The notes under the pieces are model-generated. The model saw only the letters and a list, made by a program, of their open reading frames with translations. It had not been told where the DNA came from and made no database searches. DNA of 64,000 nt from Lytechinus pictus (taxonomy: Eukaryota), in NCBI RefSeq assembly GCF_037042905.1, contig NC_087245.1, positions 33,668,001-33,732,000 of the forward strand. The letters run 5' to 3'. Position numbers and translations under genes: made by a program. This document shows positions 21,493 to 42,818 of the stretch, in pieces (the first letter of the stretch is position 1; each line of letters opens with the position of its first letter).

Positions 21493-21562
21493 ATGAAGTT
21501 TGCAGTTTACCTAGTCCTGTGTTCTTTGGCAACATCAGCCAGAGCCCAGACTGAAGGTGATG
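21493..21562 (+). CDS. SRCR gene coding exon 1: signal peptide
   Basis: AAAATG context; MKFAVYLVLCSLATSARAQTEGD (basic N-terminus, hydrophobic core, A-x-A cleavage site); donor G|GTAAGT in phase 1, matching the SRCR exons. Confidence 0.82.
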
Positions 21563-22368
21563 GTAAGTAAATTAATATTTCATCCAATGTGTCTTTGATT
21601 AACACTCGATTTCCATAATTTTCGTTTATTTAAGACTGGATCGAGGCACGCGATGGGGTACCAGATTCATCTTTGAAAACTGATAATTGAAGGGGAAGTT
21701 CGCCTGGTGTAGAAGTTGGTTTTATCATTGCAAAAAAAAATTATATTATTTATATTAAAGTCCATCAAAGATGAGAACAGTCCCCACTTAAAATGCATTT
21801 TTTTTGTTTACAGACGTTTGATAATGGTTTTAATTTGGACGTTCATTATTTCATCTGACACATCGTTCATGACCGTTTGTGTAAGAGAAAATATTACAAA
21901 ACATTACAATAATGGGTCCCTTTTTATTTCAACTACTGCTCGCATATTACATCACAAATTCGAATCTTCAAGATTCAAACTCTATTAAATTTGATTTTCG
22001 TTGGTCCTTCACCAATATCCCACTTTGTTTTTGTATGTTTAACTTTTATCAAAACAAATATGGCTATGGTTGAACTTTGAAATACATACAGGATCTCCAT
22101 TTTGTAATCATCAATGCACATCACCACTGTTACTGTCGATTTGCTCTCTGTGCTTGATTTATTTACAAAAAAAAAATAATAAATTGCCTATTGAATTTCG
22201 TTTTTGTGAACTCAACAATACACAATAAAAAAAAGAATGGAAGTTGTTTGACCCTGTCAAGTTGTTTACACTTTTAAACAAGTTGTTTAACAACTTTTTG
22301 AATATTTTACGCAATATTTATTTGAGTAACGGGCTTAAACGACGTGCTTGAATGCTTGAGTGTAACAG

Positions 22369-24354
22369 CCGTCACTATACGGGGAATGAAAAGTTTTTTG
22401 GGTAAATTGCACATTTTGGTAACAGCATATTTTGGTAAATTTACTAAAGTATGCAGGACATTGACGGTACATTTTGGTAACTCCAGTGATTATTTGCTCA
22501 GTTTTCTGTACTTAGGCCTATTAGGCATTTAACAATGCAAAACACAAGGAGGTCATATCAGTTAGTCTCTATTTTCTAAAACCACATACTTAGGCTAAAC
22601 CCATATTGTTTACCATTAATTTTGTTAATCTCGAGTTGTTCTAAGATCTAAATGGTCTCATACCCCAGTACACACTAAGCTCAATTCCATTTCGTCGAAT
22701 GACCATGCCGTCTAATGCAGTTTAGTCCAATATCATTTCGCCCAATAGCCACTTCGTGCCAATTCTTTCAATGACATTTTGTCCAATTGCCAGTTAGTCT
22801 AAGAGCCACGTCACCCAAGAGCCACTTCGCATAAGATTCATTATGTTATAATGCCACTTTGTCTTAGATTCACTTCGTCCAAAAATCACTTTGTCTTTTG
22901 AATAGCATTACTCTGCCCAATTTCATTGGTTTTCATTTCAATATCAGTCATAAAATACATCCATAGTAAAAGAAGTCAAACGAGGCAAAAGAAATAATGA
23001 AATCTCTAATATTTGATTACGTTCTTCGGATAACTAAAAAAAAAACATAAAACGTAAAATAGGGGGAGAAATCAAAGATTGTTTTGTTGTTATTATTAAA
23101 ACTTACAAGACTTAAGCCACGGGTAAACAGATAGGACTTAAATTTAAGTGTCAAATTTGCAAAAGCATGAGCCTTGGTTTCACATTACTTGACGGTAGTA
23201 GCGTACGCAGGATTTTTTTAGGGGGAGGGGGGGGGGTTAAATTAAAAGAAATTTTGATATCCAAAAAAAAGTCTTCATCACAAATTTAACGTCCTTTCGT
23301 ACCTAAAAATATTGACAAGCAAAAAAGAAAAGTCTTCAAAAAAATTAAGGGGGGCGAGATTTGAATTCTTTTGGGGGAGTGGGTATCATAAAAATTTAAG
23401 GGGGGTTTGAACTCCTGTAACCACCCCCTGCGTACCCTACTGCATGACGGACAAATTTAACATGATTTAATATTCATGACGATAATAAACTGCATCACTA
23501 AAAGTGATTAAATTTGAGAAAACTGGCAATAAACTGAATGGTCGCATAGACGATTATCAAATCAGGCTAATAAATCGCTATTTGCGTCTAGATAATAGCT
23601 GTTCATCCTTATTGTGATGGGTTTATATTTAAACTACCGGTTTTTTTTACCGGGGGTATGCCTACGCATTCACCCCCTTGACGAACCCGCAATTTGACCA
23701 TTGGCAAGTGGTCGTTGGACTTACTATCAATTGGACCGAGTAGGTATTGGATCAAAGTGTCAATTGAGCCAATTTGCAATGAAATTAGACGAACTGGCTA
23801 TTGGACGAAATGGCTATTGAAAGAAGTGTCTTTTAAACGAAGGTGCATTTAGACGAAATGTATCTTAGAGGAAGTGGCTATTGGACGAAATTGGACGGAG
23901 TGGCTTTGCACAGAGAGGCTCTTAGACGAAGTGGCTATTAGACGAGATGACTCTTAGACGAGACGGAGTGGCTCTTAGACTAACTAGCTATTGGACGAAA
24001 TGGCTATTGAACGAAATGATGTTGTACCGAACGGCATTAGACGGCATGGTCACTGGACGAAATGGCATTGGACGGAGAGGCAAATCGCCCACACACACGA
24101 CCCCTGACATTTGTTCTCACCTGATACCATAACTATCAATCTTTACTCCATCATAGCCGTCAAATCTGTTTTTTAAGCTGTTACCAAAAATGTGCATATT
24201 GTCCAAAATGTGCAGGCACATCATAACTGCACATTTTGGTAACAAAAAAAATCCTGTCAAGTATAGGTGCTACCGGCAAATTTTGGTAACAAATTAATTT
24301 TACCAAAATGTGCAGTTACCAAAATGTGTAATTTACCAAAATGTGCCGTGACAG
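22369..24354. mobile_element. Nested non-autonomous DNA transposons in SRCR intron 1
   Basis: Outer inverted arms of CACATTTTGGTAA repeats; inner inverted arms of TTAGACGAA-type repeats (about 22680-22900 and 23780-24085). Confidence 0.75.
23196..23442. mobile_element. hAT-like MITE
   Basis: TIR TAGTAGCGTACGCAG / CTGCGTACCCTACTG; 8-bp TSD CTTGACGG / CATGACGG (1 mismatch). Confidence 0.8.
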
Positions 24355-39945: not shown

Positions 39946-40248
39946 TGCGGCTGGTTGATGGAAGTGCTTCAAACGAAGGAAGAGTTGAGGTCTACGCCAA
40001 CGGAGAATGGGGTACTGTGTGTGATGATTCGTGGGATGATACAGATGCTACAGTTGTTTGCCAAAGTCTTGGCTTTCAGTCTGGAACAGCATACTCTAAC
40101 GCTCAATTCGGACAAGGCTCAGTTGATATCTTGCTAGATGATGTATCTTGTGATGGAAGTGAAACTTCTCTTCTGGAATGTTCTAATTCTGGAATAGGCG
40201 TTCACAACTGTGTACACTCTGAGGATGCGGGAGTAAATTGTTCAACAG
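39946..40248 (+). CDS. SRCR gene: SRCR domain 5
   Basis: 303 nt, phase 1-1, 6 Cys. Confidence 0.95.
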
Positions 40249-42516
40249 GTATTTCCAAAATTGTTTCCCCATACTATAATGGTTCCCAAAGTGACGCAAG
40301 AATGCGACTATTGTCGTATTCGCGTCACAGAAGGGATCAAAGTTCCACCAAACCTCCGATCGGAGGCTGTATTTATTTGATTTATATCCGTCATCGGAAT
40401 TAAATACATTAGGATAGGAATATAGATATAACTGAATGAATAACGATCTTTGAGGCCTCTGGCTTGATCACATACGCGCATTGTACGTGCACATGAGTTT
40501 GGGTTAAGGACCGCCCACCCATCATCATCATCATCCGTTAAAGTACAGTCCACCAGGTTGGTGTATCATCGTACTTGTAGAATTATGCAGGAGTATGTAC
40601 AGTGCTGTGGAAGATCTATTCTACGTACACGTGCGGTTAAAAAAAAATCAGCGCAATCTTAGCGCAATTGGATTTTCTGCACCTCAGCCTTGAAGCTGGC
40701 TACTGAAATAGTAAATAGTTTTTGAACTATTTACGTCTGACGTCACGGCTCGGGGTACTATGCCGGGATTCATGGCATTTTTGCCAATTTCGTGACATAG
40801 GTTATGACGGACCATGCTTTAAGGACGTTCCACAGTTATGTTTGTGCGCATCATGATTGCGTATATTTTACACTCTGCGCGGAAATGGTAGAAAAATAAC
40901 AATTTGGCACCCCGGATTATCACGGACTGAGATCATTGATGATCCGTTTTGCATCCTTGAAGGTGTTAAATGGTCTTTTAAGGTATTGACCAAGATTGAA
41001 GTTTCTTTCCTTGCTGCAATGTCTGATTAGCGTACACACACATGGCCATGAACACGGAATATTGTTCATATACGCAGACAATAGACAAATTTTCGACCCC
41101 GGAATGCCGTTATTAAGGACATCTCGGTTCTTACAAGGAGCCTCCCAGATGCTTTCGCTAGGTACACGGATGTACAAGGTGGCTACAAGGATGAACACGG
41201 ATGATTATCCTTCCATGTACTCCGTACTCCGGGATGAAAAATTGAACATCATGACATGTTTTTCCCCCTGATATGCCGGTACATCAAGGGTGGCGCCGGA
41301 TGAGTAGCCGGTATTTACGGCTTATACTAATCAGTCGGGTCGCGTGCGAAATCCCTCGGGGTTTGGATTTTTGGCGATTTTTTTCTAACGATGTCTTCAA
41401 TGGGACAAACACGCTGGGAAATAAAATGAAATTGAAATTCGAGTTTCGTTTTAAGCCGGCAAGTGCCTTAAATAAAATGTACTGGACTATTGTTTTAACC
41501 TAAGTGTTTTAACATAACAAACAAGCAAATCAGCCATTAGTTCAACTAACTTAGAATAGATCCGCACTTCTACTGTGTCTTATACGAGGACTCCGAGTCG
41601 GAACTTGCCATATCTGCCGCATTGATATTACATGTATATCATTCCATATGCGGACATGCCTGCATGCCTGGCCCCATGGCGGGACCCGGCCGCGGTCGGA
41701 CACGACGTGTATCAGTAGCATGGAGCAAGCTAACGTTAGTCAAGCCGAGGTAGATCCAAAGTTACAGTGCTGGCTGCTTCATCCGTGAATAAATTCGAGA
41801 GAGAGAGCATAAACAATGCAATGTAAAACATGAATAACAAATAATATTGAGGAATTTTTTATTTCCCGTCACTCTCTGAAGCCATGTCTTCTGTTTGCTG
41901 TATGTTTCCCATCGGAGTTTAATTTAGACTAGTTTTCAGTACGGTATGATAATTTGCATTTGCAAAATCCAAAACCCGAGTGATTTCGCACGCGCACGCG
42001 ACCCGACTGATTAGTATAAGCTATATTTACACAGTACATGTAATCTCGGACTGTACACGGACGACCCCGGATTGACAATCCGGACGATCCATGCTGCATT
42101 CGTAAAGGTGAAAAGGGGGCTTTAGCGGTAAAAATGCACAAAACTCGCATTGCTGTTTATTTATTTTGACTTTTGATTGATATATGATTTGTCAATTTCA
42201 TGTTTGGGCGTGACCGAAAGCCGCTAGGATGCTTTGTTATTTACGCATCAAGTTCTTTATGCATAATATACTTCCTTTTATCTACATCTTCCCGTCCCCC
42301 ACCTTTTCTTCCACTCTTCATTTCGATTGGGCACTCCACAGTGTGGATTTTGCGCATTATAAATCATATCTATTATTATTATTATTATTATTAACTTTAT
42401 GATTATCATTATTATTATTGTCACTTGTCATTTTAGTTGTCATTTCGTCATCAACACCATCGCCATCATTATCGTTTAATTTATTTTGTTAATGCATAAT
42501 TTCATAATCCTCGCAG

Positions 42517-42818
42517 TACGTCTGGTTGATGGTTCATGTGCCGGCGAGGGTAGAGTCGAGGTTTTCTATGACGAGGCCTGGGGGACTGTTTGTGACGACT
42601 TATGGGATAATACTGATGCGACCGTTGTCTGTCAAAGTCTTGGATACACATCAGGAATCGCGGTAGGAAATGCAGGATTCGGAGAAGGAACTGGGGAGAT
42701 ACTTCTTGATAATGTAGAATGTACCTCCACTAATACCGACCTCTTCGACTGCCAACGCAATGATATCGGAGATGATAATTGCTCCCATGCTGAAGATGCG
42801 GGAGTGACGTGTTCTTAA
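42517..42818 (+). CDS. SRCR gene: terminal SRCR domain 6 with stop codon
   Basis: CGCAG| acceptor in phase 1; VRLVDGSCAGEGRVEV...AEDAGVTCS*; donor AAG|GTAAAT 5 nt after the TAA. Confidence 0.93.

What the first reader, a model, noticed from the sequence alone, without database searches (positions are those of the whole stretch)
21493..42818. Secreted all-SRCR protein assembled from symmetric single-domain exons: a candidate diversifying innate-immune recognition gene
Seen: a signal-peptide exon ending in phase 1, five phase 1-1 SRCR exons (306, 306, 306, 306 and 303 nt) and a terminal SRCR exon. Together these give 1899 nt in frame (632 aa), with no transmembrane, CUB or ZP domain detected. 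One exon (33367-33672) is missing from the ORF track. Known: multi-SRCR genes are an expanded, variable immune family in echinoderms. Inference: any subset of domains 1-5 can be skipped or duplicated without a frameshift, and all five share a purine-interrupted acceptor (GGTGTCTATTGCATTTAG-like), so domain number could vary by splicing and by haplotype.
Basis: partly seen in the sequence, partly recalled or inferred. Interest (0 to 1): 0.7.

Follow-up and report, generated by a model that had tools for sequence, protein, structure and literature searches.

The report
Secreted sea urchin six-SRCR protein gene
This is an intact, database-annotated sea urchin gene for a protein predicted to be secreted and made only of six scavenger-receptor domains, likely a calcium-dependent microbe binder whose domain number differs between species, an ordinary design apart from one conserved spare cysteine that may link chains.

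Summary
The exon model is right: a signal-peptide exon, five phase 1-1 SRCR exons and a sixth SRCR exon give 632 aa with no membrane, CUB or ZP part. The locus is already in RefSeq for Lytechinus pictus as 'DMBT1-like' (a model without domain 5). It has a close paralogue, a five-domain L. variegatus orthologue and three seven-domain S. purpuratus relatives. Domain number therefore varies in evolution, by exon-plus-intron duplication; domains 1 and 2 sit in a very recent 2.57 kb tandem repeat. Exon skipping is frame-compatible but not shown for this gene. The acceptors are no weaker than the other two in the gene, and dN/dS is below 1, so there is no sign of a diversifying receptor. The cation-binding residues are kept, so it likely works as a multivalent Ca2+-dependent agglutinin or opsonin. 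One new point: the last domain carries a seventh, partnerless cysteine, kept in seven urchin genes, that may form an interchain disulfide.

The parts
21493..21562 (+). Coding part of exon 1: predicted signal peptide (about 18 aa) plus 5 residues, ends in phase 1
   Evidence: The start aligns with the first Met of the S. purpuratus cDNA-derived protein NP_999650/AAF76318 (read by eye). RefSeq starts 49 codons earlier at 21346. Cleavage site judged by eye; SignalP not available.
27008..27313 (+). SRCR exon 1 (group A, 6 Cys), phase 1-1
   Evidence: in RefSeq model P0210
29577..29882 (+). SRCR exon 2, 305 of 306 nt identical to exon 1 (one Leu/Arg change next to the Asp-Asp cation site)
33367..33672 (+). 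SRCR exon 3, phase 1-1 (the one missing from the ORF track)
34096..34401 (+). SRCR exon 4, phase 1-1
39946..40248 (+). SRCR exon 5, phase 1-1, 303 nt; left out of the current RefSeq model, present in the older one
42517..42823 (+). SRCR exon 6 (last coding exon; stop at 42816-42818, donor 5 nt later); about 60% identical to the internal domains
42537..42539 (+). Codon of the seventh, partnerless cysteine of domain 6
43795..44932 (+). 3' exon, untranslated when domain 6 is included; at least 1.1 kb; end not fixed
   Evidence: Spliced contig in run X1 with a GT..AG joint. Read in phase 1 it gives two Asp codons and a stop.
25791..30926 (+). Recent tandem duplication, period 2569 bp, carrying SRCR exons 1 and 2; about 2 kb near-identical, last 0.55 kb about 85% alike

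Best explanation
The locus is an intact Lytechinus pictus gene of one signal-peptide exon, six single-domain SRCR exons and a spliced 3' exon, and its product is predicted to be a secreted, very acidic chain of SRCR domains that likely binds polyanionic microbial or matrix surfaces through calcium bridges and would agglutinate or opsonise by avidity. Shown: exon structure, SRCR fold, no TM/CUB/ZP part, splicing of the last intron, conserved cation-ligand residues. Inferred: the internal exons turn over by unequal crossing-over and gene conversion of exon-plus-intron units, within and between two neighbouring paralogues, which changes mostly the number of binding sites and little their specificity. 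The sixth exon is kept out of this turnover, and its spare cysteine likely serves as a covalent anchor (homodimer, heterodimer with the paralogue, or link to another protein). Exon skipping is allowed by the frame but is not needed for this reading.
For: Pfam 6 of 6 exons. AlphaFold model of domain 6 pLDDT 97.9, TM 0.96-0.98 to SCARA5, M2BP and SALSA SRCR8. Predicted mature chain pI 4.05, 112 Asp+Glu against 23 Lys+Arg. The six residues that I map by motif and spacing to SALSA cation sites 2 and 3 (PMC7043408, Results part 1 read) are invariant in 21 of 21 internal Lytechinus domains; domain 6 has one Asp-to-Asn change. All 22 internal Lytechinus domains of both paralogues form one clade (SH-aLRT 97), and the 7 last domains of Lytechinus and S. 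purpuratus form another (96) (quick tree, 98 columns). Synonymous distance is 0.12-0.22 among internal exons (0 for the exon 1/2 pair) but saturated against exon 6. Intron flanks of the exons are 80-92% alike. Of 2506 SRCR domains found by pattern in 376 stored proteins, 30 carry this Cys without the group-B partner and 29 of these are the last domain; 28 of the 30 are isoforms or alleles of seven Lytechinus and S. purpuratus genes. Precedents: DMBT1 alleles with 8 against 13 domains bind 20-45% less bacteria (PMC5435793, passages); an unpaired SRCR Cys of CD5L bonds to IgM (PMC11525585, passages).
Against: No ligand, tissue or induction data exist here for this gene. Three raw RNA runs (X17, X19, X20; about 6, 6 and 25% read) had depth near zero on the bins that hold exons 3-6 (0-1.2), so it is silent or rare in those samples. 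SRCR-only proteins could also serve in matrix, adhesive or skeletal roles (general knowledge, not tested). The tandem copy of exons 1/2 could be an assembly artefact. The spare Cys could simply be capped by a small thiol. The mapping to SALSA residues is by spacing, not by a structural overlay with ions. The census is biased to hits of this query and counts isoforms separately.
Confidence: 0.62

Rival explanations
1. A splicing-diversified recognition gene: cells skip or combine domains 1-5 in a regulated way to make a repertoire of binders with different specificity.
For: All five exons are multiples of three in phase 1-1 and every junction gives Val. RefSeq models of the paralogue skip a whole SRCR exon in 3 of 13 older L. 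pictus isoforms and 4 of 5 L. variegatus isoforms. The two RefSeq models of this locus hold 5 and 4 of the 6 domains. Skipping domain 6 would also give a clean stop.
Against: These are predicted models; the two newer L. pictus paralogue isoforms retrieved both have all seven domains. Paralogue contigs align onto this locus and produce skip-like joints, which shows how such models could arise by mis-assignment. No skip joint specific to this gene was among the 15 of 999 joints shown. Internal domains are 78-98% identical, dN/dS is below 1, and variable columns are not enriched next to the cation ligands in sequence (p = 0.71). Acceptors are not weaker than the gene's other two.
Confidence: 0.15
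2. A secreted structural or matrix protein (epithelial coat, adhesive, skeletal matrix) that uses its acidic, cation-binding SRCR chain and spare cysteine to cross-link into extracellular material, with no main role in microbe recognition.
For: Very acidic chain and one spare Cys. SALSA SRCR domains also bind hydroxyapatite and heparin through the same site (PMC7043408).
Against: Fast exon turnover and small tandem families in each species fit immune genes. A review passage says S. purpuratus SRCR genes are expressed in coelomocytes with individual-specific profiles (PMC7308585).
Confidence: 0.17
3. A decaying or minor duplicate of the neighbouring paralogue, or a locus partly shaped by assembly error (false tandem copy of exon 1/2).
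For: In X1 the contig of this gene has word depth 84 against 440 for contigs that I assign to the paralogue (a rough measure). It lacks the paralogue's short linker inserts. Exons 1 and 2 differ by one base.
Against: All frames and splice sites are intact, dN/dS is below 1, it is spliced in X1, and L. variegatus has an intact orthologue with the same distinctive domain type and also no linker inserts. Both RefSeq versions carry both copies with the same Leu/Arg difference, though they may rest on the same animal.
Confidence: 0.06

Closest known systems
RefSeq XP_063956925.1 / XP_063956932.1 and XP_054755403.1 (Lytechinus pictus, 'DMBT1-like' and 'neurotrypsin-like')
   Same: The first is letter for letter exon 1 (from 21346) plus domains 1-4 and 6 of this locus; the second is domains 1, 2, 5, 6 with three substitutions.
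   Different: Neither holds all six domains; both start at an upstream ATG that adds 49 residues before the signal peptide. Predictions only.
S. purpuratus scavenger receptor cysteine-rich protein precursor NP_999650.1 / AAF76318.1 / Q9NC88 and its paralogues XP_030847769, XP_030847771
   Same: Signal peptide plus SRCR domains only, same start, last domain in the same clade with the same seventh Cys.
   Different: Seven domains; a second internal domain type that Lytechinus lacks; 61-68 of 98 residues identical in the last domain. That AAF76318 is one of the coelomocyte cDNAs of Pancer 2000 is recalled; that paper is not held.
Paralogue in L. pictus (XP_054755305-394) and L. variegatus (XP_041470181-210); L. 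variegatus orthologue XP_041470167.1
   Same: Same plan; internal domains 76-95 of 99 identical to those of this gene (paralogues); same 7-Cys last domain.
   Different: The paralogue has 7 or 8 domains and 2- and 3-residue linker inserts, likely micro-exons, which this gene lacks. The orthologue has 5 domains. That the two genes are neighbours is inferred from adjacent accessions and equal contig lengths.
Human DMBT1 / SALSA / gp340
   Same: Secreted tandem of near-identical SRCR domains, one exon each, number varying between alleles, cation-dependent binding (PMC5435793, PMC7043408).
   Different: DMBT1 has group B 8-Cys domains, interspersed SID linkers, CUB and ZP domains; none of these is here. 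Works like it; not its orthologue.
CD5L / AIM
   Same: Secreted SRCR-only protein with an unpaired Cys used for a covalent link (PMC11525585).
   Different: Three group B domains; the spare Cys lies between C4 and C5, not in the first loop; the partner (IgM) does not exist in urchins.
Sea urchin srcr142 (pigment-cell marker)
   Same: Multiple near-identical SRCR domains; induced by bacteria in larvae (PMC5073156, PMC11688612, passages).
   Different: Its L. pictus entry is LOC129277690 / XP_054769815.1 (supplement), another accession than this locus; sequences not compared.

Membership tests
SRCR superfamily, group A | Match to the SRCR domain profile above the curated cut-off | tested here: met
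   PF00530 101-112 bits against a cut-off of 26.1 in 6 of 6 exons
SRCR superfamily, group A | Six conserved cysteines, lacking the group B C1-C4 pair | tested here: met
   Domains 1-5 have 6 Cys; domain 6 has these 6 plus one non-canonical Cys, two residues before the group B C1 position and without C4
SRCR superfamily, group A | SRCR fold | tested here: met
   Model of domain 6, pLDDT 97.9; TM 0.96-0.98, rmsd 0.7-1.0 to SCARA5, M2BP and SALSA SRCR8. Only domain 6 was folded.
SRCR superfamily, group A | Acidic cation-binding sites | tested here: met
   Residues mapped by motif and spacing to SALSA sites 2 and 3 invariant in 21 of 21 internal domains; ion binding itself not testable
DMBT1 (orthologue) | Group B 8-Cys SRCR domains | tested here: not met
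   6 or 7 Cys per domain
DMBT1 (orthologue) | CUB and ZP domains at the C terminus | tested here: not met
   Stop directly after domain 6; the next exon is untranslated
DMBT1 (orthologue) | Thr/Ser-rich SID linkers | tested here: not met
   Linkers of 2-3 residues; no linker exon matching the paralogue's inserts in the introns. Other small exons cannot be fully excluded without long reads.
Echinoid secreted SRCR-only subfamily (NP_999650 type) | Signal peptide, SRCR domains only, last domain of the 7-Cys clade | tested here: met
   This grouping is mine, drawn from these calls, not from a paper.
Echinoid secreted SRCR-only subfamily (NP_999650 type) | Expression in immune cells | not testable with these tools
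   Run metadata are coded; tissue unknown
Diversified innate receptors (Dscam-, SpTransformer-, FREP-like) | Many transcript variants from one locus | tested here: inconclusive
   Only predicted models; no gene-specific skip joint among those shown; raw RNA runs did not cover the exons
Diversified innate receptors (Dscam-, SpTransformer-, FREP-like) | Hypervariable, positively selected binding surface | tested here: not met
   dN/dS 0.28-0.66 over whole exons; no enrichment of variable columns near the ligands in sequence. Site models and 3D distances were not run, so a few selected sites are not excluded.

The most novel reading that the evidence does not exclude
The conserved spare cysteine of the last domain joins two chains tail to tail, including chains from the paralogue and from different alleles, so that urchins build two-armed, antibody-shaped agglutinins whose arms vary in length and make-up by exon turnover and skipping, with skipping of domain 6 giving a monomer form.
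Probability: 0.2. Interest if true: 0.6.

Novelty: new member of a known kind. Interest (0 to 1): 0.27.

Why it matters
As it stands it is a small gain: a corrected six-domain model of an annotated but unstudied gene in a tractable model urchin, and a clear case of internal exons turning over while the last exon is held fixed. The spare cysteine gives a cheap, decisive test (non-reducing gel, Cys-to-Ser mutant) of whether these secreted SRCR proteins form covalent multimers, which would bear on how invertebrates gain avidity without antibodies. Domain-number variation itself is already known for DMBT1, and large variable SRCR families are known for sea urchins.

Tried and rejected
Missed micro-exons: the paralogue's models and X1 contigs show 6- and 9-nt linker inserts, but no such sequence with splice sites lies in this gene's introns, and the RefSeq model of this locus and the L. 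variegatus orthologue lack them; I assign those joints to the paralogue. Weak, skipping-prone acceptors: rejected. Gene-wide positive selection: rejected. Variable residues clustered at the cation site: not seen in a sequence-neighbour test (22 near against 70 other columns, p = 0.71; a first run caught only 4 domains through a pattern slip and was redone). Homodimer of domain 6 by complex prediction: no verdict (score 0.03, mark 0.32, controls not folded). Short transcript-derived proteins that would show junctions: none above 66% identity among the 120 listed of 747. No RNA holder was on record in the run search. No whole genome was held, so the paralogue's DNA and other haplotypes were not seen. 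Literature: searches for the accessions and recalled gene names found no paper on this gene or its S. purpuratus relative; a search for unpaired cysteines in invertebrate SRCR proteins (12 of 55 listed) showed only CD5L as relevant; some searches gave general background. Pancer 2000 and subscription papers are not in the library and may describe the odd cysteine. The scan's own notes had nothing near this locus or like this sequence. The last protein of the list (P0165) was not evaluated because the script stopped there.
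Full report
Observation. Exon 1 codes 70 nt from the ATG at 21493 and ends in phase 1. Five SRCR exons of 306, 306, 306, 306 and 303 nt and a sixth of 302 nt to the stop have AG/GT borders; joined they give 1899 nt, 632 aa. All six match PF00530. There is no hydrophobic segment after the signal peptide. The exon at 33367-33672 is missing from a start-codon ORF list only because it has no early start codon. A donor lies 5 nt after the stop, and contigs of run X1 join 42823 to 43795 across a GT..AG intron. 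One contig matches 128 nt of exon 6 with no difference and runs 1.1 kb into the next exon. The kind of run X1 is not on record; the spliced joint suggests RNA. This 3' exon is untranslated, so no TM, CUB or ZP part is added in that transcript.

Identity. Protein searches and cluster look-ups show that the locus is already annotated. XP_063956925.1/XP_063956932.1 of Lytechinus pictus equals exon 1 (from an upstream ATG at 21346) plus domains 1-4 and 6, letter for letter. An older model, XP_054755403.1, equals domains 1, 2, 5 and 6 with three substitutions. Earlier notes of the scan had named the species; one search confirms it. L. variegatus has a five-domain orthologue (XP_041470167.1) with the same distinctive domain type as domains 1 and 2. 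Both species have a close paralogue of 7 or 8 domains, probably next door (adjacent accessions, equal contig lengths). S. purpuratus has three seven-domain relatives, one of them the cDNA-derived NP_999650.1/AAF76318.1. The gene is not listed as L. pictus srcr142, which has another accession (PMC11688612 supplement).

How the gene was built. Self-comparison shows that exons were copied with their introns: flanks of exons 1-5 align at 80-92%. Exons 1 and 2 lie in a tandem repeat of period 2569 bp. Its first 2000 aligned bases differ by 15 substitutions plus small gaps, mostly homopolymer length changes, and the last 550 bases are about 85% alike. This fits a recent unequal crossover or conversion tract, or a false duplication in the assembly; both RefSeq versions carry both copies, but may come from one animal. 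In a tree of 61 domains, the 22 internal Lytechinus domains of both paralogues form one clade (SH-aLRT 97) and the seven last domains of Lytechinus and S. purpuratus form another (96) (quick method, few columns; an earlier tree with other outgroups gave the same split for Lytechinus). Synonymous sites are 0.12-0.22 apart among internal exons and saturated against exon 6. So the internal exons turn over and the last exon is old and stable.

Diversification. Any subset of exons 1-5 can be skipped in frame, and even skipping exon 6 gives a clean stop. RefSeq models of the paralogue skip a whole SRCR exon in 3 of 13 older L. pictus isoforms and 4 of 5 L. variegatus isoforms, while the 2 newer L. 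pictus isoforms retrieved have all seven. These are predictions. The read lay covered 28600-46400, so not exon 1 or SRCR exon 1, and showed 15 of 999 joints. The four joints shown between SRCR exons (three in the joint table, one more in the table of letters between) all carry 6- or 9-nt linker inserts. These inserts match the paralogue's linkers and are absent from this gene's introns, so I assign them to the paralogue. This also shows how easily skip-like joints arise by cross-mapping. Raw RNA runs X17, X19 and X20 had depth 0-1.2 on the bins holding exons 3-6. The shared acceptors have 12-15 pyrimidines in 20, like the gene's other two. dN/dS is 0.28-0.66 in the 9 computable pairs, 61 of 98 columns are invariant in 21 internal domains, and variable columns are not enriched beside the cation ligands. 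Skipping in this gene and copy number between haplotypes remain open; a diversifying receptor is not supported.

Mechanism. Domain 6 folds as a standard SRCR domain (pLDDT 97.9; TM 0.96-0.98 to SCARA5, M2BP and SALSA SRCR8). SALSA binds bacterial protein, heparin and hydroxyapatite through surface cations held by D1019, D1020, D1058, D1059, N1081 and E1086 (PMC7043408, passages and first part of Results). The residues that correspond by motif and spacing are invariant in all 21 internal domains examined, with one Asp-to-Asn change in domain 6. The predicted mature chain is strongly acidic (pI 4.05), so binding to polyanions would need cation bridges. With no membrane anchor or signalling part, the likely action is multivalent binding in body fluid or mucus. 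Human DMBT1 alleles with fewer domains bind fewer bacteria (PMC5435793, passages), so a change in domain number would mainly tune avidity. An immune role rests on family context: more than 200 multi-SRCR genes in S. purpuratus (PMC5073156, PMC3342036, passages), coelomocyte expression with individual-specific profiles, and a secreted sea star SRCR protein that mediates bacterial clearance (review passage, PMC7308585). It is not shown for this gene.

The spare cysteine. The predicted mature chain has 37 Cys: six per domain and one more in the first loop of domain 6. It lies two residues before the group B C1 position and has no C4 partner. Among 2506 domains found by pattern in 376 stored proteins, 30 have this arrangement and 29 of them are the last domain. 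28 are isoforms or alleles of seven Lytechinus and S. purpuratus genes; the other two are a brachiopod and a Diadema protein. The set is biased to relatives of the query. An unpaired Cys is called exceptional in the superfamily, and in CD5L it bonds to IgM (PMC11525585, passages). A conserved odd Cys in the one exon that escapes turnover points to an interchain link, but the partner is unknown and capping by a small thiol is possible. My searches found no paper on it; Pancer 2000 and other subscription papers could not be read and may mention it. Of supplements, only those of PMC11688612 were searched.

Verdict. A real, spliced, intact gene; a group A SRCR-only secreted protein that works like DMBT1 but is not its orthologue. 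It is a new, unstudied member of a known kind, already present in RefSeq in incomplete form. Interest 0.27. The boldest reading left open, covalent two-armed agglutinins with variable arms, has probability about 0.2 and would merit about 0.6.

Noticed in passing
window 35492-39740 (intron between SRCR exons 4 and 5): 4.25 kb insertion with matching inverted ends (12 bp) flanked by TA on both sides, holding 36 copies of an 8-bp palindrome that occurs nowhere else in the window, and a 1.2 kb minisatellite. Looks like a non-autonomous DNA transposon; a CMC/EnSpm-type assignment is recalled, not tested. The 323-aa ORF at 38772-39740 has no Pfam match.
   Followed up: partly
window about 31984-32925 (intron between SRCR exons 2 and 3): Multicopy element with sub-terminal inverted repeats and an internal tandem repeat of about 170-190 bp; reads pile up to depth above 2000 in all three RNA runs, strand-biased in X17 and X19, mostly at 90-95% identity, so from other copies.
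   Followed up: partly
window 7233-12650, minus strand: Ty3/Gypsy-type LTR element: 154-bp direct repeats 97% alike, protease, RNase H and integrase matches, reading frame broken into several pieces.
   Followed up: partly
window 16795-18462, minus strand: 556-aa reverse transcriptase frame of a LINE-type element (PF00078).
   Followed up: no
window 1779-2450: Tandem repeat with a period of about 53 bp and long open frames on the plus strand; no Pfam match for the one frame scanned.
   Followed up: no
window 42813-42823 and 43795-43803: The stop lies 5 nt before a splice donor, and the next exon read in phase 1 gives two Asp codons and a stop; transcripts that skip domain 6 would still end cleanly.
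   Followed up: partly
window 21346 and 21554-21562: An upstream in-frame ATG (used by RefSeq) would put 49 residues before the signal peptide; a second possible phase-1 donor lies 6 nt inside exon 1.
   Followed up: no
P0151 (Lingula anatina) and P0237 (Diadema setosum): The same extra Cys occurs in the last domain of a brachiopod SRCR-only protein, which groups with that protein's own domains on a long branch (possibly independent origin), and in the penultimate domain of a Diadema protein that has other extra Cys pairs.
   Followed up: partly
last domains of the four Lytechinus genes: Domain 6 of this gene is closer to the L. variegatus paralogue (91 of 98) than to its own orthologue (89) or the L. 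pictus paralogue (88), hinting at exchange between paralogues; support is weak (SH-aLRT 87).
   Followed up: partly
window 53071-53663, 57287-57896, 59350-59946, 60210-60802: Several 600-bp elements with inverted ends, present in two copies each (self-BLAST); likely MITEs.
   Followed up: no
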